From a virus: a stretch of DNA of 64,000 nucleotides. The notes beneath the pieces are model-generated. The model saw nothing but the letters and a program-made list of their open reading frames with translations, was not told the origin of the DNA and ran no database searches. The stretch is from the IMG/VR virus record IMGVR_UViG_3300045988_159706. One strand, 5' to 3'. Of this stretch, positions 270 through 51,812 are shown one piece after another. Position 1 is the first letter of the stretch. Each line of letters starts with the position of its first letter. A program made the position numbers and the translations under genes.

Positions 270-1160
270 ATGGGAAGCGGATCATGGAGTTCTAGCACAT
301 ATAAAGCTTTTGCTGATAGCTATACTAAAAAATCCAGAGAAGAAATCTTTCATCAAAGATCTCTACACGAAGAAATGGATCTTACAAAAAGTAAGACGCA
401 TATTCGAGAATCTAGAGATTCTGAGGAACACCCAGAATCTCTTCCAGTTTTCATTGCATTAGATGAAACTGGTTCAATGGGTTCAATTCCTGATAAGATG
501 ATCAGGGATTATCTTCCGAAGTTAATGGATTCTATTATTGATTCTATTGGAGTTAAACACCCTCAAATTCTTTTTATGGGAGTAGGAGATCATGAATGTG
601 ATTACTGCCCGTGTCAGGTAGGTCAATTCGAATCTTCAACTGTTGCAATTAATCAATGTCTCTCTAAAATCTATTTGGAGGGTCGTGGTGGAGGTAATAG
701 TGGAGAATCCTACTTACTTCCTTGGATTATTGCAGGAAATCACACGTCAATTGATAGCTGGGAAAAGCGAAAGCAAAAAGGATTCCTTTTTACAGTTGGT
801 GATGAACCTACTTTGACAAGAATAAGTAGGGGAACTTTGGCATCCCTCACTGGAATGGAGTATGAGCGTGATTATACCTGGCAGGAGGCTTATGAACTTG
901 CCTGTGAGAAATATCATGTGTTTCATATCCATGTTCGACATGGAAGTGAACATTATGATGAGGTAGTAGCTAAACAAATGAAAGAAATTCTTAGAGAAAA
1001 CTTTATTGTGTGCAAACCTGATGAAGTTGTAGAAGCCATTTGTGAAGCTATGGGTAAAACTCTAAAAGGTAGCTCTTCAGTAATTGAAGAGGTTTCTGCA
1101 GAAAAAACTGTAGAAAATACAGAATCAAAACCTAATATATTTGACATACATCGACGATAA
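270..1160 (+). CDS. von Willebrand factor A (vWA) domain protein
   Basis: MIDAS-like VFIALDETGSMGS, then an alternating beta/alpha pattern and FTVGDEP. No in-frame TGA. TAATG stop/start coupling to the next gene. Confidence 0.6.
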   Translation: MGSGSWSSSTYKAFADSYTKKSREEIFHQRSLHEEMDLTKSKTHIRESRDSEEHPESLPVFIALDETGSMGSIPDKMIRDYLPKLMDSIIDSIGVKHPQILFMGVGDHECDYCPCQVGQFESSTVAINQCLSKIYLEGRGGGNSGESYLLPWIIAGNHTSIDSWEKRKQKGFLFTVGDEPTLTRISRGTLASLTGMEYERDYTWQEAYELACEKYHVFHIHVRHGSEHYDEVVAKQMKEILRENFIVCKPDEVVEAICEAMGKTLKGSSSVIEEVSAEKTVENTESKPNIFDIHRR

Positions 1161-2254
1161 TGTATAATATTGTAGTGGGTTGTACGTTTGGCGACGAGGG
1201 CAAGGGTCAAGTGACTCATGCCCTTTGTTGCGACGCTAAAAGAAAGCGTTTAAAACCTCTGGTTGTTAGATTTTCTGGAGGGCATCAATCAGGGCACACA
1301 GTAGCTACTTCATTTGGAACAATGCATATATTTTCTTGCTTTGGATCTGGAACATTTGCTGAAGCACCTACCTATTGGATGAAGCAATGTGTTATGGATC
1401 CACTACAATGGATGCGGGAACGAGAGGAGTTGGATTTCTTAGGATGTAATATCCCTATCCAATATTTTGATCCATATGTACAAGTAACAACTCCTTTTGA
1501 CGTAATGCTGAATTCTGAAAGGAGTAAAGGTTTTACAGTAGGAAAAGGGATATGGGAGACTGTTCAGAGACAAAGAGAAGGACTAGCTTTATATGTAAAA
1601 GATTTAGCTTTTCCTCAAGTTGTAAAAATGAAGCTCCGATTAATTAGAGAATGGGCGGAAGATAGACTCCAGTTTAAGGAAACTTATTCAAGATTTGCTC
1701 ATGTTTTCGATAACTTAGATTCTTTAGTACATACTTATTGTAAGATTTTTTATCCCAATATAGTATTGGAGGATACGTTATCTAAATTAGCATGGAAAGA
1801 AAAGACTTCTGTGATATTTGAGGGTTCTCAAGGAGTACTTTTGGACCCTAATATTGGATTTTCACATGAATATACTACCCCACTTCCATGTTGTCCATCG
1901 TGGGACAATCTCCCATTCTTTTTAAGTGATGATCAACTAATATTTAATTTTGTATATAGATCTTATTTAACAAGACATGGTAAAGGGCCTGTTGGAGGTT
2001 CTATATTCAAGGAGATTAATAATCCTTATGAAACAAATTTAAATAATCCTTTTCAAGGAGAATTTCAAACTTATGAATTCAATAAGGAATTAGTCTTGTA
2101 TGGAATTGATCATGTTAAATCACACTTTAATCCTGAATATAAGGTAAGGTTGATTGAAACATGTTGTGACATATGTGCAGGACATGACTTAGGAATCCCT
2201 TATAATTACTCTATCAAAACCTGCAAAAAGAATTTTGACTCTGTATGCAAATAA
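1160..2254 (+). CDS. Adenylosuccinate synthetase superfamily protein, short PurZ/archaeal-PurA-like form
   Basis: FGDEGKGQV (GDEGKGK loop), GGHQSGHTV (PurA GGhNaGHT), FEGSQGVLLD (EGAQG.lLD) and YLTRHGKGP (TRvG.GPF). At 364 aa it is clearly shorter than 430-aa bacterial PurA. No TGA. Confidence 0.75.
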   Translation: MYNIVVGCTFGDEGKGQVTHALCCDAKRKRLKPLVVRFSGGHQSGHTVATSFGTMHIFSCFGSGTFAEAPTYWMKQCVMDPLQWMREREELDFLGCNIPIQYFDPYVQVTTPFDVMLNSERSKGFTVGKGIWETVQRQREGLALYVKDLAFPQVVKMKLRLIREWAEDRLQFKETYSRFAHVFDNLDSLVHTYCKIFYPNIVLEDTLSKLAWKEKTSVIFEGSQGVLLDPNIGFSHEYTTPLPCCPSWDNLPFFLSDDQLIFNFVYRSYLTRHGKGPVGGSIFKEINNPYETNLNNPFQGEFQTYEFNKELVLYGIDHVKSHFNPEYKVRLIETCCDICAGHDLGIPYNYSIKTCKKNFDSVCK

Positions 2255-3066
2255 TTAACTTTTTATACCCAGAAAAGTCAGAAATAAAGTATCGAATTGA
2301 TACTTATCCTGATTCTCAATCTCATCTTGTACTTGAGTCTGAAATAGATAGACGAAAGTCTTTGTCGATATATACTAGACTGTCCAATTTGAATGATATT
2401 TGGATCCTAATGCAATTAGCTGATATTTGTCATCGTCAAGGTATCCAGATTTCCTTTTTACGAATAGCTTATTTATTTGCAGCACGAACTGATAGATTAT
2501 TTTCTTTTAACGAAGCATTAGATTTGGAGCTTGTTAAAAAATGTCTTACCTTTGTACAAGCAGATCAAATTCTAATATTAGATCTTCATTCTAAGCGTTT
2601 GATTACAGAAGGGGTAATTGATAATGACTGGCCTACATTCTTTGCTTTAGAAGCAAGTTCTAATATTCCAGAGAATGTTTTATTCCCTGACGAAGGTGCC
2701 TATCATCGTTACAGTGAGCTTTTAGACTTTAATATAAAATGTCGTACTACAACGTATGTTGCTACAAAGCATAGGATCTCAAGGGATAAGCTAGAGGTAA
2801 AATTACCTTCTGAAATAAAGCCAAATACTTCTATTCTAGTTTTTGATGATTTATGTGATGGTGGGGGAACTTTCTTTGCAATTCATAAAGCATTACAAGA
2901 TATGGGAGTAACTGATGTGCATTTACGTGTTACGCATGCTATCCAAAAAGAACCTTTAGTAAAGTTATCAAAACTTTACAAAACAATAACAATTACCAAT
3001 TCTTATAAGGATTGGGATAAAGAAGAACTTCCAAACAATATAAAAGTAATAAGAGTTTATGAATAA
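2245..3066 (+). CDS. Ribose-phosphate pyrophosphokinase (Prs)-like PRTase-fold protein
   Basis: PRPP-binding loop ILVFDDLCDGGGTF. ILDLHS resembles the Prs DLHa motif. 273 aa; overlaps both neighbours by a few nt. Confidence 0.6.
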   Translation: MQIINFLYPEKSEIKYRIDTYPDSQSHLVLESEIDRRKSLSIYTRLSNLNDIWILMQLADICHRQGIQISFLRIAYLFAARTDRLFSFNEALDLELVKKCLTFVQADQILILDLHSKRLITEGVIDNDWPTFFALEASSNIPENVLFPDEGAYHRYSELLDFNIKCRTTTYVATKHRISRDKLEVKLPSEIKPNTSILVFDDLCDGGGTFFAIHKALQDMGVTDVHLRVTHAIQKEPLVKLSKLYKTITITNSYKDWDKEELPNNIKVIRVYE

Positions 3067-3409
3067 ATTTAATGAAATTCTGAGTGCTACTGGAACTGCG
3101 GTACTCAAGAAACGTGCTGAAATCATCAATGCTGATGCCCGCGAAGCAGCTAAGGATCAGGTTAATCTCATTGAGAAAGAGATTCGTCAGATTAAGTCCA
3201 AGATTATGAATCTGGAGGATCTGTCGATTAAATCGACCGAATCACTGGTTGTAGGTACGGATTTTAAGGCAGATGAGTGGGTAACTCAGATGTTCAAGCT
3301 TCGTGATGACTTGCGCAACGCTGAAATCTGTCTGGAAATTGCTCAGAATATTTATAATGAGTATTTCACGGAACTTCCTGAAGTAGACTGTGATAAGAAA
3401 GCAGAATAG
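3059..3409 (+). CDS. Hypothetical coiled-coil protein with locally GC-richer codon usage
   Basis: Complete ORF with TAG stop. Visibly more CGT/CTG/GCT codons than the neighbours. Followed by a hairpin terminator. Confidence 0.6.
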   Translation: MNKFNEILSATGTAVLKKRAEIINADAREAAKDQVNLIEKEIRQIKSKIMNLEDLSIKSTESLVVGTDFKADEWVTQMFKLRDDLRNAEICLEIAQNIYNEYFTELPEVDCDKKAE

Positions 3410-3416
3410 CTTCATA

Positions 3417-3437
3417 GGCGGATTTACTCCGCCTTTT
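3417..3437 (+). terminator. Intrinsic terminator hairpin
   Basis: GGCGGA-TTTAC-TCCGCC followed by TTTT, 8 nt after the TAG stop. Confidence 0.7.
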
Positions 3438-3439
3438 AA

Positions 3440-3513
3440 GGGCCCTTAGCTCAATTGAATAGAGCATCTGACTACGAATTAGAAGGTTACAGGTTTGAGT
3501 CCTGTAGGGCCCA
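3440..3513 (+). tRNA. tRNA-Arg (anticodon ACG)
   Basis: 74-nt cloverleaf: acceptor GGGCCCT/AGGGCCC, D stem GCTC/GAGC, anticodon stem TCTGA/TTAGA with loop CTACGAA, T arm ACAGG-TTTGAGT-CCTGT. Confidence 0.9.
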
Positions 3514-3516
3514 CAT

Positions 3517-3720
3517 ATGAAAACTGTTTTATATAGAATACAATCAATTGAAGCCCCAGAAAATGAAGGGTTTCGGTATGGCTCATTAAGAACGCTATCT
3601 AAGACAAAGGTAGATGAAGAAATGTGCTTAAGGAATGAGTTTGGAAGTCATTATCTAATTAATGTTCCAGATTATTGAATTTGTGAGATTTTAAAAGAAA
3701 TAGAAGAAGATGATGTATAG
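3517..3720 (+). CDS. Small hypothetical protein (67 aa when TGA 3676-3678 is read through)
   Basis: ATG at 3517; MKTVLYRIQSIEAPENEGFRYG... continues past the TGA to TAG at 3718-3720, overlapping the next start. Too short for the ORF track. Confidence 0.35.
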
Positions 3721-4771
3721 TTTAGATGAAATAGGTATTTTACCTAGTTCAAAAGCCACGGATATTACAAGTCGTAGTGAGTGTAGTCCTTTAGGAGACT
3801 TAGGAACATATCCTATTTTTGTTTCTCCTATGACATCCGTTATTGATGAATCAAATTATCAACTTTTTACAAAGGCTGATGTGCTTCCAATTATTCCAAG
3901 ACGTGTAGATAATTTACAGTTTAGACTTAATGCATGTAACCATGTTTGGTGTGCATTTAGTTTAAAGGAATTTGAAACATTCTTTTGTGAAGGAGAACCT
4001 TCTGATGAGTGTCCTCTGGTACTTATTGATATGGCTAATGGCCACATGAAGAAAATTTATGACCTGGTTAAGAAGGCTAAGGAAAAGTGGAGCACGATTA
4101 TTATCATGGTAGGTAATATAGCTCATCCAGATCTTTATTGGGAATGCTATGATGCAGGGGTGGACTATGTTCGTGTAGGTATTGGAACTGGCAGTGTATG
4201 TACTACAGGAGTAAAAACTGGAGTACATGCTTCTATGGAATGGCTATTGCAACAATTAGTTAAGCGTCGATCCATGATTAAAGAGTCTCCTAAACCTAAA
4301 AAGGCTCCAAAGATTATCGCAGATGGAGGAATTTCTACAATAGATCGAGCTATAAAGTGTTTAGCTTTGGGCGCCGATTATGTAATGATGGGTAAAATGT
4401 TTGCTCAATGTAACGAAGCTTGTGGGTATGTTAGAACAAAGTGGCCAGATGATAATGATACTATACTTAAATATTTTGCATCTTTAACTAAAGCAGAAAG
4501 TGATCGAATCATTGAAGTGTATCCTAAAGAGCGATTATACTACGGAATGGCAAGTGAACGTGGTCAAAAGGATATTTCAAACACTAAAAAGGCCGAAGAA
4601 GGAATTGAAATTTGGGTTCCTGTTGAATATACTCTTGAATCTTTACTTTCTCAATTTGATTCTGCATTAAGGTCTGCTATGTCTTATACAGGATGTAGGA
4701 CTCTTGAAGAATTCAAAAATGTAAAATGGGAGTATATGTCTCCCTCTGAAAGAAATGCTTATTACAAATAA
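3710..4771 (+). CDS. GMP reductase / IMP dehydrogenase family protein (GuaC-like, no CBS insert)
   Basis: Catalytic-Cys loop GIGTGSVCTTGVKTGV, IADGGIST and GADYVMMG. 353 aa, the size of GuaC. No TGA. Confidence 0.75.
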   Translation: MMYSLDEIGILPSSKATDITSRSECSPLGDLGTYPIFVSPMTSVIDESNYQLFTKADVLPIIPRRVDNLQFRLNACNHVWCAFSLKEFETFFCEGEPSDECPLVLIDMANGHMKKIYDLVKKAKEKWSTIIIMVGNIAHPDLYWECYDAGVDYVRVGIGTGSVCTTGVKTGVHASMEWLLQQLVKRRSMIKESPKPKKAPKIIADGGISTIDRAIKCLALGADYVMMGKMFAQCNEACGYVRTKWPDDNDTILKYFASLTKAESDRIIEVYPKERLYYGMASERGQKDISNTKKAEEGIEIWVPVEYTLESLLSQFDSALRSAMSYTGCRTLEEFKNVKWEYMSPSERNAYYK

Positions 4772-4970: not shown

Positions 4971-5044
4971 GTCCCTGTAGTTCAGTTGCATAGAACATCT
5001 CACTTCTAATGAGAAAGTCGCAGGTTGGAGCCCTGCCAGGGATA
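4971..5044 (+). tRNA. tRNA-Arg (anticodon TCT)
   Basis: 74-nt cloverleaf: acceptor GTCCCTG/CAGGGAT, D stem GTTC/GAAC, anticodon stem TCTCA/TGAGA with loop CTTCTAA, T arm GCAGG-TTGGAGC-CCTGC. Confidence 0.9.
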
Positions 5045-5061
5045 CAACGCTTAAGATTAAC

Positions 5062-5077: not shown

Positions 5078-5142
5078 TTAGATATGAATTTTATAGGTTA
5101 TGTTATAATATTTAACTAATTTTTAGAATGAATTCAAAATGA

Positions 5143-5769
5143 TTGTTAGAAAAAGAAAAATTAGAACAATTAATTTTAATTGATAAACTAAGTTACGAAG
5201 AGATAGGGAAAAAATATAATTGCTCTGGTAGTAATATTAAAAAAGTTGCTTCAAAAATAGGAATTACGTTACCAAAGAGACGTAAATTAAATCCTAATGA
5301 AACATTTAATAAAGGAGTGCATAAAGTAATTGTTTCTAATATTAATATCCCTAAACCTATACAAAAAGTTGGCACTAAAACTTATTGTCTTAACTGTGGA
5401 CATGAATTAGATGGATATGCCAAAAAATATTGCTCTAGTAAATGTCAAATAGAGTATAAACATAAATTAGCATATAAAAAATTTTTAGAAGGAGACCTTT
5501 CTATTATGAGAGCTAATTATAACCCTAGAGTATTTAAGAAAGATATTATAAAAGAACAAAACAATAAGTGTGCTATCTGTGGTTTAGAACCTGAGTGAAA
5601 TAATAAGGAGCTTGTTTTTATTTTAGATCATATTGACGGACATGCTGCAAACAATAAACGAGATAATTTAAGGTGTATATGTCCTAATTGTGATTCACAA
5701 TTAGATACTTATAAATCTAAGAATAAAAATGGAGATAGGCATTATTACAGATACCATAAAAATAAATAG
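5143..5769 (+). CDS. HNH homing endonuclease with N-terminal helix-turn-helix
   Basis: ORF 5143-5598 continues in frame through TGA 5596-5598: ...CAICGLEPE-W-NNKELVFILDHIDGHAANNKRDNLRCICPNCDSQL (HNH core plus Zn-binding Cys pairs). N-terminal LSYEEIGKKYNCSGSNIKKV looks like an HTH. TAG stop at 5767-5769. Confidence 0.8.
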
Positions 5770-5785
5770 TTTATCCTAAACTGGC

Positions 5786-5825
5786 GGCTGAATAGCCATT
5801 GTGGGTTCGAGTCCCACCCTCCGTA
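5786..5825 (+). pseudogene. 3' portion of a class II-like tRNA (extra-arm hairpin, T arm, acceptor 3' strand) with no 5' half
   Basis: GGCT-GAAT-AGCC hairpin, then a canonical T arm GTGGG-TTCGAGT-CCCAC, then CCTCCGT-A. No complementary ACGGAGG strand or D arm lies upstream. It starts 17 nt after the HNH stop. Confidence 0.5.
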
Positions 5826-5841
5826 CTAATAACATTATAAT

Positions 5842-8493: not shown

Positions 8494-8578
8494 GGAGAGT
8501 AATCCTTGATGGTGATAGGGCTTGCCTGCTAAGCAATGTGTGCCTTTCTGGCATGTGGTTCGATTCCACTGCTCTCCG
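8494..8578 (+). tRNA. tRNA-Ser (anticodon GCT), class II
   Basis: Acceptor GGAGAGT/GCTCTCC, anticodon loop CTGCTAA, extra arm TGCC-TTTCT-GGCA, T loop TTCGATT, discriminator G. Confidence 0.8.
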
Positions 8579-8602
8579 CAAATAAACTAATATTAGAAGG
8601 GT

Positions 8603-9493: not shown

Positions 9494-9583
9494 GCGCCTG
9501 ACCCGAGGCGGGGGGGAGGTCTTCAAAACCTCTATGCTGTTGGTCCATCTTCAGCCCTGTGGGATCGTTACCTACCAGGCGTG
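9494..9583 (+). tRNA. Opal-decoding tRNA (anticodon TCA) with a long extra arm and G73
   Basis: Acceptor GCGCCTG/CAGGCGT. Anticodon stem GAGGT/ACCTC with loop CTTCAAA (UCA). About 25-nt extra region with GCTG/CAGC stem. T arm GTGGG-ATCGTTA-CCTAC. Discriminator G. The D region is G-rich and non-canonical. Confidence 0.75.
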
Positions 9584-9600: not shown

Positions 9601-10185
9601 ATGACTATTAAGGAACAATGTATACATTTACGAGAAGAAGGAAAAACTTATAACGAAATTTGTGCTATTCTACACTGCTCTAAAAGTACAGTTGCATATC
9701 ATTTGAACGCGACTACTAAAATAGCAGCCACAAAATGACAAAGTGAAAATAAATGTAAGGATTGAAAGTATAAATTTATGCATAGTTGTTCTAATTTTTT
9801 AAATCGAAAAGATAGATCTAAACACATCAAAACAATGTGCTCAGATTGAAATAAAAAGTTTAGAACTCACGTATCAGAGTTCAATAATAGATATAAAAAT
9901 AAAGGAAATTTGGCTAATAAATGTTACTATAAAGATGTGTTAACATATCTTAATGGAACTAATGTTAAATGTTATTTAACAGGTACACCTATTGATTTGA
10001 CAAAAGATGATTATTGTTTTGATCATATAGTTCCTGTATCAAAAGGAGGAACTAATGAATTATCAAATCTAGGAGTAACTATTCCCTCAGCTAATTATTC
10101 TAAACATGATTTAACTATAGAGGAATATTTGTCTTTATGTAAACAGGTTTTAGAACATCATGGGTATACTGTAAGTAAAACTTAA
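9601..10185 (+). CDS. HNH homing endonuclease with N-terminal helix-turn-helix
   Basis: ATG at 9601 is in frame with ORF 9910-10185 through three TGA codons. N-terminal EGKTYNEICAILHCSKSTVAYHL looks like an HTH. C-terminal CFDHIVPVSKGGTNELSNLGVTIPSANYSKH is the HNH core. Confidence 0.8.
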
Positions 10186-50979: not shown

Positions 50980-51418
50980 ACCATCTTTTGAAATACTTGA
51001 GCAGGAACCAGGTATTCAAGGAATATATAAGCAAATTGAGAGAGCAGGGAGAACATGCTATAAATCAGAGGATCATATTACAGAAGACTCAGCAGAGAAA
51101 TTTGTTAATATGATTAAGGATAGACAGCATACTGCTATGCTTGAACATGGCACTGTATATCTTTATATTCATAAGGATCATGCTTACAATGTAATAGGTG
51201 ATAATTGGGTAACTGAACAATACCTTTCTAATTCTTACTCAGTTATTAATACAGATTCTTATGGTAATTATCATATCACAACTAATTACAGAGTTTTATA
51301 TGAAAATGACTGGCTTGACGATTTAAAATATCTCTGTGAACCTACTGAATATCATGAAAAACGAATTACAGTAAAGTTTATTTGTGATCGTGGTGTGTCT
51401 CATGAGTTTGTAAGGCAT
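50966..51418 (+). CDS. thyX: Flavin-dependent thymidylate synthase ThyX, exon 1
   Basis: Ends ...DRGVSHEFVRH with the last exon base T (51418). Standard translation runs into the intron and stops 7 codons later. Confidence 0.8.
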
Positions 51419-51812
51419 AAAATACTTTGTGTCGCATAATAGTAATATTATGAAAAATAAACTCCGTGAATTGCTGGAAAGCTAAACATAAAATGCATGC
51501 TAATCAGCAGCCAAGCACACCTTTAACAAAGTGTGAAGGTTCAGAGACTAACTAATGAAACTATGATAAAATATATTTTTAATTATATATGGTATTTAAT
51601 CCAATTACCTATTTATTTTATACTAATGTGTTGTGTATTTACAATACCATTGGCAGCTATGCTATGGGGATTTGAATTAAAAGGACCAGATAAACCTCAT
51701 AGAATATAATTTAGACACGAGTGCGGAGCATCCAGAAATGGATGATGATATAGTCCGATACTCCTCTGAAAAGAGGAGAGTATAAGATAAAGAGCTTATA
51801 CATAACAAATTG
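51419..51812 (+). mobile_element. Group I intron (394 nt, no homing endonuclease ORF) interrupting thyX
   Basis: Splicing U51418 | ... G51812 | AGA restores VRH-RVFSFAQESTRY, the ThyX RHR..S...ES.RY signature. The core segments CTCCGTGAATTGCTGG, CACGAGTGCGGAG, GATATAGTCCGA and GTATAAGATAAAGAGC recur in the second intron at 54919-55174. Confidence 0.75.
51563..51709 (+). CDS. Possible 48-aa hydrophobic ORF inside the thyX intron
   Basis: MIKYIFNYIWYLIQLPIYFILMCCVFTIPLAAMLWGFELKGPDKPHRI occupies the AT-rich peripheral insertion of the intron. There is no support beyond the ORF itself. Confidence 0.2.
   Translation: MIKYIFNYIWYLIQLPIYFILMCCVFTIPLAAMLWGFELKGPDKPHRI

What the first reader, a model, noticed from the sequence alone, without database searches (positions are those of the whole stretch)
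9494..9583. The only UCA-anticodon tRNA has a class II / tRNA-Sec-like build, so its charging identity is unclear
The 90-nt tRNA has these features:
- anticodon loop CTTCAAA, the same loop as both Mycoplasma-type tRNA-Trp(UCA) and E. coli selC;
- a G73 discriminator;
- a roughly 25-nt extra region (GCTG/CAGC stem with a 12-nt loop);
- a G-rich D region with seven consecutive G that does not fold into a standard 4-bp D stem;
- a T loop ATCGTTA, in which the usual T54/A58 pair is swapped to A54/T58.

In bacteria, a long extra arm plus G73 are the seryl-tRNA synthetase identity elements (shared by tRNA-Sec). TrpRS mainly reads the anticodon and G73. The TGA positions argue for Trp, but the tRNA body looks Ser/Sec-like. 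Either this is an unusual Trp acceptor, or TGA inserts something other than Trp at least part of the time.
Basis: partly seen in the sequence, partly recalled or inferred. Interest (0 to 1): 0.7.

Follow-up and report, generated by a model that had tools for sequence, protein, structure and literature searches.

The report
Opal-suppressor Trp tRNA with decoy arm
This is a real, tightly conserved phage tRNA that reads the stop codon UGA as tryptophan; it belongs to a phage-only tRNA family, not found in the searched literature, whose extra arm carries a copy of the normal tryptophan anticodon, probably so the host charging enzyme still recognises it.

Summary
ARAGORN calls it tRNA-SeC(UCA). Rfam's tRNA and tRNA-Sec models give no match even at E<=10.

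It is not a relic. It is invariant across about 22 gut-phage contigs whose flanks differ by 7-12%. The only variant is a compensatory G-C to A-U change in the anticodon stem.

TGA behaves as Trp in this phage:
- It aligns to conserved Trp, including a TGG codon in a relative whose ligase gene has no in-frame TGA, and the motif Ia Trp of a solved XPB helicase.
- It exchanges with TGG, TAT and TTT in orthologues, never with Ser codons.

The body is not Sec-like (7/5 branch, compact D arm) and lacks the conserved tRNA-Ser G1-C72 and G2-C71 pairs.

It is a divergent member of a phage-specific family of tRNA-Trp-derived UCA tRNAs. In that family the extra arm is a covarying hairpin with loop NUCCAAA, a copy of the Trp CCA anticodon loop. 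A parallel family of long tRNA-Ile(UAU) carries a GAU loop in the same place.

My inference, untested, is that the extra arm is a pseudo-anticodon that restores synthetase recognition lost at U34.

The parts
9494..9583 (+). Opal-suppressor tRNA(UCA), 90 nt including discriminator G73; no encoded CCA (the trailer is CAAG).
   Evidence: ARAGORN; family model R1 at 40.3 bits; invariant in relatives.
9494..9500 (+). Acceptor stem 5' strand GCGCCUG. It pairs with 9576-9582 CAGGCGU, giving G1.U72, C2-G71 and G3-C70.
9501..9515 (+). Compact D region: A8, then CCCG-AGG-CGGG (4 bp, 3-nt loop), then a GGG linker. The register is ambiguous because of the run of seven G.
   Evidence: MFE fold. ARAGORN's alternative is 3 bp with a 7-nt loop. 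A similar compact D arm occurs in many long phage tRNA-Ile(UAU).
9516..9532 (+). Decoding anticodon arm GAGGU-CUUCAAA-ACCUC, with anticodon UCA at 9523-9525.
   Evidence: Compensatory G-C to A-U change in L018, L020 and L227.
9533..9558 (+). Extra (variable) arm, 26 nt: UAU, GCUG (9536-9539), loop UUGGUCCAUCUU, CAGC (9552-9555), CCU.
   Evidence: It aligns without gaps to the family's pseudo-anticodon arm.
9544..9547 (+). UCCA at the tip of the extra arm, at the same alignment position as U33-C34-C35-A36 of the family's CCA pseudo-anticodon loop.
   Evidence: (TCCA invariant in 23/23).
9559..9575 (+). T arm GUGGG-AUCGUUA-CCUAC. The stem is tRNA-Trp-type; the loop has A54/U58.
   Evidence: The AUCGUUA loop also occurs in otherwise ordinary tRNAs.
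9601..10185 (+). HTH + HNH endonuclease-like ORF with 3 in-frame TGA. Together with the tRNA it forms a roughly 680-bp cassette that other phages replace with a different UCA tRNA allele.

Best explanation
The gene at 9494-9583 is the phage's working UGA decoder. It is a tRNA-Trp-derived opal suppressor, charged with Trp (most likely by the host TrpRS), whose UCA arm reads UGA on the ribosome.

It belongs to a phage-specific 'five-arm' family with this layout: acceptor with G73, D arm, UCA anticodon arm, an extra hairpin, a short linker, then a tRNA-Trp-type T arm. [quoted passage not shown]

Proposed mechanism (inferred). TrpRS uses C34-C35-A36 and G73 as identity elements. Changing C34 to U to read UGA weakens recognition. 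The extra arm offers the synthetase an intact CCA pseudo-anticodon, while the true anticodon arm does the decoding.

The window's copy is a remodelled member. It has a compact D arm and a swapped T loop, and its extra arm keeps only UCCA at the tip.

My confidence that it is a functional Trp-inserting suppressor is about 0.8. My confidence that the extra arm works as a synthetase pseudo-anticodon is about 0.45.
For: Shown:
1. Purifying selection. There is no change in 91 nt across 9 distinct haplotypes, and only a compensatory pair in 2 others, while flanks differ by 7-12%. The same sequence occurs in 9 IMG/VR and about 12 gut-metagenome contigs.
2. TGA behaves as Trp.
   - Ligase TGA at aa23 aligns to W in 95/115 homologues. 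One is P0118, whose ligase gene has no in-frame TGA and uses TGG there.
   - Helicase TGA columns are W in 115-120/120 homologues. One of them aligns to the motif Ia 'QW' Trp of PDB 5tnu.
   - Codon census in diverged orthologues: window TGA pairs with TGA 39, TAT 10, TGG 9, TTT 5 and Ser codons 0. Window TGG pairs with TGG 134 and TGA 24.
3. Family.
   - 23 distinct relatives align with TCCA invariant in the extra-arm loop.
   - All 5 extra-arm pairs covary. The whole structure is 95.1% paired against 78.8% in shuffles.
   - The model built from them hits 9494-9583 best in the window, at 40.3 bits.
4. Specificity of the motif. TCCA occurs in the variable region of 23/37 long UCA tRNAs, all of them the Trp-like ones. 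It occurs in 0/103 Ser, 0/50 Tyr, 3/72 Leu and 0/17 long Trp(CCA).
5. Independent parallel. Long tRNA-Ile(UAU) carry an extra arm with loop C(A/U/C)GAUUA, which contains the GAU Ile anticodon. This holds for 6 of 7 in loci fetched for other reasons and for 73 distinct sequences with 21 different stems and 290/292 stem positions paired.
6. Related phages carry other UCA tRNAs at the same locus or region:
   - a five-arm Trp-like tRNA with an intron (L010),
   - a five-arm tRNA (L149),
   - class I Trp-like tRNAs (L030, L148).

From established knowledge: TrpRS identity is the anticodon plus G73 plus the first acceptor pairs (PMC9976931). An engineered pseudo-anticodon in a V arm can enhance aminoacylation (PMC7590224).
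Against: - There is no direct charging or expression data.
- Rfam tRNA models miss the gene.
- The D arm and T loop are atypical.
- In the window copy the extra-arm loop is not a 7-nt anticodon-like loop, and its stem is out of register with the family model. It shows no variation of its own from which to test covariation.
- Class I UCA tRNAs without any extra arm exist in relatives (L030, L148), so a decoy is not obligatory.
- The Ile pseudo-loop is CAGAUUA, not the true CUGAUAA.
- How a synthetase would reach a loop on the extra arm is unknown.
- The shared CCA arm could partly reflect common descent from one anticodon-arm duplication.
- Only 64 kb of a roughly 140-175 kb genome is visible, so another UGA decoder elsewhere cannot be excluded.
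- Many protein homologues were themselves translated with code 4, so that evidence is circular.
Confidence: 0.6

Rival explanations
1. The tRNA is Trp-charged and functional, but the extra arm is not a synthetase decoy. It could be a neutral relic of a tandem duplication of the anticodon arm. Or it could serve another purpose, such as protection from host anticodon nucleases, processing or stability, or a phage-encoded partner.
For: - In canonical members the CCA arm plus its 3' linker (NGGU) is exactly the class I tRNA-Trp arrangement, as expected from a duplication.
- Relatives manage with class I UCA tRNAs.
- The window copy has lost the anticodon-like loop.
- Some phages put long arms without any anticodon mimic on many isoacceptors.
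Against: - The loop UCCA is invariant while stems covary in 18 or more different versions.
- The motif is absent from long Trp(CCA) tRNAs and from Ser, Tyr and Leu arms.
- An unrelated Ile(UAU) family shows the matching GAU triplet.
- In both families position 34 changed to U in the decoding anticodon; for both synthetases the anticodon is a recognised identity element.
Confidence: 0.27
2. The class II-like body makes it a SerRS substrate, so UGA is read wholly or partly as Ser.
For: It has a long extra arm and G73, both Ser identity elements. ARAGORN types it as SeC.
Against: - None of about 75 aligned codons opposite window TGA is a Ser codon, whereas Trp, Tyr and Phe dominate.
- TGA sits at invariant Trp columns of the helicase and ligase.
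- G1-C72 and G2-C71, conserved in bacterial tRNA-Ser, are replaced by G1.U72 and C2-G71, a SerRS antideterminant in E. coli.
- The arm has 3-nt linkers on both sides and U.U mismatches, unlike the phage's own tRNA-Ser(GCU) at 8494-8579.
- A bulge in a V-arm stem abolishes serylation of allo-tRNAs (PMC7590224 abstract).
Confidence: 0.06
3. It is a decaying or non-functional tRNA-like remnant, and UGA is decoded by another tRNA outside the 64-kb window.
For: - Rfam finds nothing.
- The D arm, T loop and extra arm are all aberrant.
- tRNA remnants do exist in this genome, for example 5778-5826.
- The rest of the genome is unseen.
Against: - It is completely conserved against 7-12% flank divergence, and its only variant is a compensatory pair.
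- It folds into a clean cloverleaf.
- Its compact D arm and AUCGUUA T loop recur in other phage tRNAs.
- Each related phage examined has one UCA tRNA in the same tRNA region.
Confidence: 0.06
4. It is a selenocysteine tRNA (selC).
For: ARAGORN label; UCA anticodon; G73; long extra arm.
Against: - The branch is 7/5, not 8/5, and there is no 6-bp D stem.
- There is no RF01852 hit.
- TGA codons lie at Trp positions in dozens of ORFs.
- Real selC genes recovered in the same scans have GGAAG-type 8-bp acceptors and GGUGGGUUCGAYUCCCAC T arms.
Confidence: 0.01

Closest known systems
Phage-encoded TGA suppressor tRNAs of code-4 (TGA=Trp) gut phages (Borges et al., bioRxiv 10.1101/2021.08.26.457843; AP1/HF2 tRNA-Trp(UCA), PMC12636597)
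   Same: A UCA anticodon in a low-GC gut phage with in-frame TGA at Trp positions. G73 is shared with AP1 tRNA(UCA). The presumed Trp charging is the same.
   Different: Those papers describe no extra arm. Borges et al. detected suppressors in only 35% of code-4 phages and suggested that non-canonical tRNAs were being missed. This tRNA has a 26-nt extra arm, a compact D arm and a swapped T loop. No phage TrpRS was seen among the window ORFs I scanned.
Bacterial tRNA-Trp (E. coli / B. subtilis type) and Mycoplasma or organellar tRNA-Trp(UCA)
   Same: The anticodon arm GGUCU-N-CAAAACC, T stem GUGGG/CCUAC and G73 match. Canonical five-arm relatives also have A1-U72 and G2-G5 pairs like B. subtilis tRNA-Trp.
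   Different: Those are class I tRNAs of 74-76 nt with a 4-5-nt variable loop. The window copy has G1.U72 and C2-G71, plus an extra arm.
[quoted passage not shown]
   Same: A hairpin in the variable arm that mimics a cognate anticodon arm and is meant to recruit a synthetase anticodon-binding domain. It enhanced aminoacylation in vivo.
   Different: That system is synthetic. It is built on allo-tRNA chassis and uses HisRS fused to an extra binding domain. Here the arrangement is natural, with no evidence of a modified synthetase.
Bacterial tRNA-Sec (selC) and allo-tRNAs (Mukai et al. 2017, PMC5389517)
   Same: A long extra arm, G73 and a UCA anticodon are possible. They are also found in phages and metagenomes, and trip tRNA finders in the same way.
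   Different: tRNA-Sec has an 8/5 branch and allo-tRNAs have 8/4 or 9/3, with Ser identity through the V arm. This tRNA has a 7/5 branch and no Ser-type acceptor pairs.
Nematode nev-tRNAs (PMC3333845, PMC4300185)
   Same: A class II-looking body carrying an anticodon of another amino-acid family, including Ile UAU.
   Different: nev-tRNAs are charged according to their body (Leu) and would mistranslate. Here the codon evidence says the anticodon's meaning (Trp) holds, and the arm carries the cognate anticodon triplet.
Anticodon-like mimics in mRNAs that bind synthetases (thrS operator; PMC9976931)
   Same: An anticodon-like stem-loop outside a tRNA's decoding position is read by a synthetase's anticodon-binding domain.
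   Different: Those are regulatory mRNA elements, not part of a tRNA that is itself aminoacylated.

Membership tests
Bacterial tRNA-Sec (selC) | 13-bp acceptor/T branch (8-bp acceptor + 5-bp T stem) | tested here: not met
   7-bp acceptor + 5-bp T stem.
Bacterial tRNA-Sec (selC) | 6-bp D stem with a 4-nt loop | tested here: not met
   3-4 bp D stem with a 3-7-nt loop.
Bacterial tRNA-Sec (selC) | Match to the Rfam RF01852 covariance model | tested here: not met
   No hit at E<=10. True selC genes in phage contigs have a different build.
Bacterial tRNA-Sec (selC) | UGA used at rare Sec sites with SECIS and sel genes | tested here: not met
   In-frame TGA occurs in about 45 of 83 listed + strand ORFs, at Trp columns. 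sel genes were not searched for.
Bacterial tRNA-Ser (class II) | Long variable arm and G73 | tested here: met
   26-nt variable region with a 4-bp stem, and G73.
Bacterial tRNA-Ser (class II) | Conserved G1-C72 and G2-C71 acceptor pairs | tested here: not met
   G1.U72 and C2-G71. Rule taken from PMC9976931.
Bacterial tRNA-Ser (class II) | The codon it reads is used as Ser | tested here: not met
   No Ser codon or residue enrichment at TGA positions.
Bacterial tRNA-Ser (class II) | Charged by SerRS | not testable with these tools
   Needs an aminoacylation assay.
Bacterial-type tRNA-Trp | G73 discriminator | tested here: met
   G at 9583. Identity rule from PMC9976931.
Bacterial-type tRNA-Trp | Anticodon C34-C35-A36 | tested here: not met
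   The decoding anticodon is U34-C35-A36. A CCA is present only in the extra-arm loop, at 9545-9547.
Bacterial-type tRNA-Trp | A1-U72 and G2-G5 acceptor pairs (B. subtilis set) | tested here: not met
   The window copy has G1.U72, C2-G71, G3-C70, C4-G69 and C5-G68. Most canonical five-arm relatives do meet this feature.
Bacterial-type tRNA-Trp | Class I build (4-5-nt variable loop) | tested here: not met
   26-nt variable region.
Bacterial-type tRNA-Trp | The codon it reads is used as Trp | tested here: met
Bacterial-type tRNA-Trp | Charged by TrpRS | not testable with these tools
   Needs an aminoacylation assay.
Phage five-arm tRNA-Trp(UCA) with CCA pseudo-anticodon arm (family defined here, alignment A1 / model R1) | Full-length match to the family covariance model | tested here: met
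   40.3 bits, E about 9e-10, model positions 1-93. It is the best hit in the window, about 8 bits above ordinary tRNAs.
Phage five-arm tRNA-Trp(UCA) with CCA pseudo-anticodon arm (family defined here, alignment A1 / model R1) | UCCA in the loop of the extra arm, at the family position | tested here: met
   UCCA at 9544-9547 aligns to the invariant TCCA.
Phage five-arm tRNA-Trp(UCA) with CCA pseudo-anticodon arm (family defined here, alignment A1 / model R1) | Extra arm is a 4-7-bp stem closing a 7-9-nt anticodon-like loop NUCCAAA | tested here: not met
   The window has GCUG/CAGC closing a 12-nt loop (or an irregular helix with a UCCA tetraloop). The stem is out of register with the model.
Phage five-arm tRNA-Trp(UCA) with CCA pseudo-anticodon arm (family defined here, alignment A1 / model R1) | tRNA-Trp-type T arm GUGGG-UUCGAWU-CCUAC | tested here: inconclusive
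   The stem is identical, but the loop is AUCGUUA instead of UUCGAAU.
allo-tRNA (8/4 or 9/3) | Long acceptor stem with a shortened T stem | tested here: not met
   7/5 branch. Definition from PMC5389517.

The most novel reading that the evidence does not exclude
Phages have repeatedly evolved tRNAs with two anticodon-like arms. One is a decoding arm whose first anticodon base has been changed to U: UCA to read the stop codon UGA, and UAU to read AUA. The other is a pseudo-anticodon arm in the variable region that keeps the canonical triplet (CCA for Trp, GAU for Ile). Its role would be to let the unmodified host synthetase still recognise and charge the tRNA. If so, codon reading and synthetase identity are uncoupled within one natural tRNA, and this is one route by which phages install a changed genetic code in a standard-code host. 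The window's tRNA would be a streamlined derivative of that design.
Probability: 0.42. Interest if true: 0.92.

Novelty: new variant of a known kind. Interest (0 to 1): 0.78.

Why it matters
Stop-codon recoding in gut phages is well documented, but the machinery is not. Suppressor tRNAs were detected in only about a third of TGA-recoded phages, and how host synthetases charge them is an open question. This locus bears on that in three ways.

- Detection. At least some of the 'missing' suppressors may be structurally non-canonical tRNAs that standard covariance models do not see. Rfam misses this one completely. ARAGORN finds it but mislabels it as Sec.
- Mechanism. The family offers a concrete, testable hypothesis for charging: a pseudo-anticodon arm that preserves synthetase identity while the real anticodon is changed. 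The same design appears in a second amino-acid family, Ile(UAU).
- Application. If the hypothesis is right, it is a new natural principle of tRNA identity. It is also a ready-made template for engineering suppressor or reassigned tRNAs that use native synthetases.

There is a practical point for annotation too. These genes should not be read as selenocysteine tRNAs, and TGA should be translated as Trp in these genomes.

Tried and rejected
- Rfam at gathering and at E<=10 gave no tRNA or tRNA-Sec hit on the locus. I rejected the inference 'therefore a pseudogene' because of the conservation and the compensatory change.
- BLAST of the tRNA and its 4.5-kb surroundings against 50,697 phage records found no close relative.
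- The metagenome scan for more window-type variants returned only identical copies plus the known A-U variant. The window-type extra arm therefore cannot be tested for covariation on its own.
- Homologue alignments proved partly circular. The three helicase homologues I checked use TGA themselves, and the database had translated it as W. I replaced this with a TGG-coded relative, a PDB structure and a codon-pair census.
- Rfam did not recognise the roughly 600-nt insertion in the L014/L010 tRNA alleles as a group I intron at E<=1. The intron reading rests on its position (U34|C35), the terminal G and a PDDEXK_5 ORF.
- The ORF-coverage comparison (code 4 against code 11) for loci with five-arm tRNAs was too noisy in tRNA-rich regions to show recoding in every case.
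- The promoter and terminator scan was uninformative.
- I looked for pseudo-anticodon mimics in other long phage tRNAs (Arg UCU, Lys UUU, Cys, Glu, His, Met, Asn) and found none.
- Literature searches for natural tRNAs with a second or pseudo-anticodon arm found only the engineered case. Subscription-only papers were not searchable.
Full report
**1. The observation**

- a 7-bp acceptor stem GCGCCUG/CAGGCGU with G1.U72, C2-G71 and discriminator G73;
- a single A8;
- a G-rich D region (CCCGAGGCGGGGGG);
- an anticodon arm GAGGU-CUUCAAA-ACCUC with anticodon UCA;
- a 26-nt variable region with stem GCUG/CAGC and a 12-nt loop;
- a T arm GUGGG-AUCGUUA-CCUAC.

ARAGORN calls it tRNA-SeC(tca). The unconstrained MFE fold is a clean cloverleaf with an extra hairpin. 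Rfam's tRNA and tRNA-Sec models do not report it at the gathering threshold or at E<=10. It is the only UCA tRNA found in the window by ARAGORN or by my own family model.

**2. It is under selection, not decaying**

An exact-match scan found the same tRNA in nine IMG/VR contigs of 89-170 kb. A metagenome scan found about twelve more human-gut contigs.

I compared 11 distinct haplotypes with the window:

| Region | Identity to window |
|---|---|
| tRNA | 997/1001 |
| 250 nt upstream | 88.4% |
| 250 nt downstream | 92.7% |

The only tRNA differences, in L018, L020 and L227, are a double change that converts the G-C pair next to the anticodon loop into A-U. At about 9% divergence, zero changes in 91 nt has a probability of roughly 2e-4. 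That is my arithmetic, and the relatives are not independent of one another.

**3. The meaning of TGA**

The window is 32% GC, with genes on the + strand. About 45 of the 83 listed + strand ORFs carry in-frame TGA, including a helicase, a primase-like ORF, a ligase and a PolA-like polymerase.

*Ligase* (TGA masked as X):
- TGA at aa23 aligns to W in 95/115 homologues, and at aa348 to W in 79/115.
- The other three TGA columns hold Y, F, L, M, I or W, as do the TGG columns.
- Ser is absent apart from a single residue.
- One homologue, P0118 (an NCBI MAG contig), has no in-frame TGA in its ligase gene and uses TGG at the aa23 column.

*Helicase*:
- TGA columns 25, 75 and 168 are W in 115-120 of 120 homologues.
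- The three homologues I checked at the DNA level also use TGA there, so the database W is an assumption.
- Two things break that circularity. The window uses TGG where those homologues use TGA (columns 239 and 376). And TGA at column 75 aligns to the Trp of motif Ia 'QW' in the solved archaeal XPBII helicase 5tnu.

*Codon-pair census*, window against related loci, for orthologues below 80% identity:

| Window codon | Aligned codons in relatives |
|---|---|
| TGA | TGA 39, TAT 10, TGG 9, TTT 5, Ser codons 0 |
| TGG | TGG 134, TGA 24, TAT 10, TTT 5 |

TGA therefore has the substitution profile of Trp.

**4. The locus is a polymorphic cassette**

In L010, L011 and L023-L027 the homology with the window stops one base before the tRNA and resumes at the end of the HNH-like ORF 9601-10185. 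In its place those phages carry a different UCA tRNA.

That tRNA has a normal D arm and T loop, G73 and a 24-26-nt variable region. It is split between U34 and C35 by about 600 nt encoding a PD-(D/E)XK endonuclease (PF11645, E = 1e-14).

L014 has the window-type tRNA split at the same point. L030 and L148 have class I Trp-like UCA tRNAs, and L149 has an intronless long one.

Related phages thus fill this locus or the same tRNA region with structurally different UCA tRNAs, which argues that they are functional equivalents. The window-type, L010-type and L030 alleles share G1.U72 and G73; L149 has A1-U72 with G73, and L148 has neither.

**5. What the extra arm is**

In the L010 allele the 'variable arm' reads GGGGU-CUCCAAA-ACUCC followed by AGGU and the T stem. 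That is a complete tRNA-Trp(CCA) anticodon stem-loop with its normal variable loop.

Scans of IMG/VR recovered about 24 distinct long UCA tRNAs with this architecture. Most also carry the B. subtilis-type Trp acceptor set (A1-U72, G2-G5 pairs, G73; for the rule). Several sit directly next to a class I tRNA-Trp(CCA) gene (L107, L121, L135).

In a 23-sequence alignment that excludes the window:
- TCCA in the extra-arm loop is invariant.
- All five extra-arm pairs show changes on both sides.
- The five-helix structure is 95.1% paired, against 78.8% in shuffles and 37-49% when partners are slid.
- MFE folding recovers the five arms independently.

The motif is specific. TCCA occurs in the variable region of 23/37 long UCA tRNAs, which are exactly the Trp-like ones; the other 14 are true selC. 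It occurs in 0/103 Ser, 0/50 Tyr, 3/72 Leu and 0/17 long Trp(CCA) tRNAs.

In 185,579 species genomes the family appears only on two MAG contigs that look like phage.

**6. Where the window tRNA fits**

A covariance model built from those 23 sequences scores 9494-9583 at 40.3 bits (E about 9e-10), full length. That is the best hit in the window and about 8 bits above ordinary tRNAs. It aligns the window's UCCA (9544-9547) to the family's pseudo-anticodon without gaps.

The window copy still differs:
- Its extra-arm stem is in a different register and closes a 12-nt loop.
- Its D arm is compact.
- Its T loop is AUCGUUA.

Neither of the last two oddities is unique. The AUCGUUA loop occurs in otherwise ordinary tRNAs (Asp, Glu, Thr, Ile) in metagenomes. 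The compact D arm (one linker nucleotide, a 4-bp stem, a 3-4-nt loop) is shared by about a third of the long phage tRNA-Ile(UAU). I therefore read the window tRNA as a streamlined member of the design rather than a wreck.

**7. An independent parallel**

Among tRNAs in loci fetched for other reasons, six of the seven long (90-94 nt) tRNA-Ile(UAU) have an extra arm with the 7-nt loop C(A/G)GAUUA. This places GAU, the canonical Ile anticodon, at loop positions 3-5.

They have 21 different 4-bp stems, with 290/292 stem positions paired.

No long Ile(GAU) or Trp(CCA) tRNA carries its own anticodon in the arm.

In both families the decoding anticodon has U34. In both systems the synthetase is known to use the anticodon, including position 34, as an identity element (PMC9976931).

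**8. Mechanism**

Shown:
- The tRNA is conserved.
- TGA is used as Trp.
- The family's extra arm is a selected hairpin carrying the cognate anticodon triplet.

Inferred:
- The UCA arm decodes. It is the arm that stays a perfect 7-nt-loop hairpin in every member, including the window.
- The tRNA is charged by TrpRS.
- The extra arm supplies the CCA determinant lost at position 34.

An engineered precedent exists: a pseudo-anticodon in a V arm enhanced aminoacylation by a synthetase carrying an added anticodon-binding domain (PMC7590224).

Unknowns:
- How a native TrpRS or IleRS reaches that loop.
- Whether the two hairpins swap places on the D stem.
- Whether the window's reduced arm still works this way.

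Serylation is disfavoured by G1.U72 and C2-G71 and by the codon evidence, but a low level cannot be excluded.

**9. Comparison with what is known, and novelty**

Phage TGA suppressor tRNAs and code-4 phages are known. The papers I could search describe no extra or pseudo-anticodon arm in them, nor in natural tRNA-Ile(UAU). Borges et al. explicitly suspected undetected non-canonical suppressors.

The tRNA fails the defining tests for tRNA-Sec, allo-tRNA and tRNA-Ser. It meets the functional test for Trp. It is a partial structural member of the five-arm family defined here.

I rate it a new variant of a known kind (a Trp opal suppressor) with a possibly new identity principle. The caveat is that the literature library is incomplete and no biochemistry exists.

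Noticed in passing
L099 5253-5342, L048 5224-5314(-), L067 3669-3759(-), L082 5914-6005(-), L059 10520-10613; L374-L491: Long (88-94 nt) phage tRNA-Ile(UAU) genes carry an extra arm whose 7-nt loop is C(A/U/C)GAUUA. This is the Ile anticodon GAU at loop positions 3-5. There are 73 distinct sequences with 21 different stems. It is the same design as the Trp(UCA)/CCA family, and I did not find it in the searched literature.
   Followed up: partly
L010 5286-5973 (also L011, L023-L027): An alternative allele sits at the same locus. It is a Trp-like five-arm tRNA(UCA) split between U34 and C35 by about 600 nt. The insert encodes a PDDEXK_5 (I-Ssp6803I-type) endonuclease whose own ORF contains an in-frame TGA. 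It is probably a group I intron, though Rfam does not recognise it.
   Followed up: partly
L014 4706-5395: The window-type tRNA is interrupted at the same U34|C35 position by a related roughly 600-nt insert. The intron therefore moves between structurally different UCA tRNA alleles.
   Followed up: partly
window 5778-5826 (with ORF 5128-5769): This is the 3' half (anticodon-stem 3' strand, variable arm, T arm, acceptor 3' strand) of the long tRNA-Arg(UCU) allele that is intact in L013 and L003. The 5' half is absent. It lies just after an HNH-like ORF and about 730 nt downstream of the class I tRNA-Arg(UCU) at 4971-5045. It looks like the scar of a cassette replacement driven by a homing endonuclease.
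   Followed up: partly
window 9601-10185: A free-standing HTH + HNH endonuclease-like ORF with three in-frame TGA lies directly downstream of the suppressor tRNA, so it depends on that tRNA for its own translation. The tRNA and this ORF together are the unit exchanged between phages.
   Followed up: partly
window 51409-51778: A group I intron (Rfam RF00028, 74.3 bits) with a roughly 130-nt insertion lies between short ORFs downstream of the PolA-like gene. I did not work out which gene it interrupts.
   Followed up: no
L033, L036, L041, L071, L073, L074, L087, L140: Some phages put a long variable arm and a class II-type D arm on many isoacceptors that are normally class I: Trp(CCA), Lys, Cys, Glu, Met, His and Asn. 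These arms carry no anticodon mimic. The 3' half of the window tRNA most resembles the L033 Trp(CCA) tRNA.
   Followed up: no
L211, L213, L223, L224, L250 and about 20 other freshwater or soil metagenome loci: A recurrent 75-nt tRNA-Asp(GUC) gene has the same swapped T loop AUCGUUA and an encoded CCA, usually directly after another tRNA. The same loop occurs in Glu, Thr and Ile tRNAs. The A54/U58 T loop is therefore a recurring natural variant.
   Followed up: no
window 8494-8579: The phage tRNA-Ser(GCU) is found by ARAGORN but does not reach the Rfam tRNA threshold. Its best Rfam match is the tRNA-Sec model, at 41.9 bits against a gathering score of 47.
   Followed up: no
window 270-4771 versus 5128 onwards: The first five ORFs have no in-frame TGA and use only TGG. 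Two of them are an adenylosuccinate synthetase-like gene (1160-2254) and an IMPDH/GMP reductase-like gene (3710-4771). Replication genes further on are heavily TGA-coded (the helicase has 6 within the gene, the ligase 5). Recoding here is not confined to late or lysis genes.
   Followed up: no
L107 737-1033, L121 8971-9145, L135 1559-1733: In several phages the five-arm tRNA(UCA) gene is immediately followed, 3-127 nt away, by a class I tRNA-Trp(CCA) gene with the same acceptor identity set. This is consistent with origin by local duplication.
   Followed up: no
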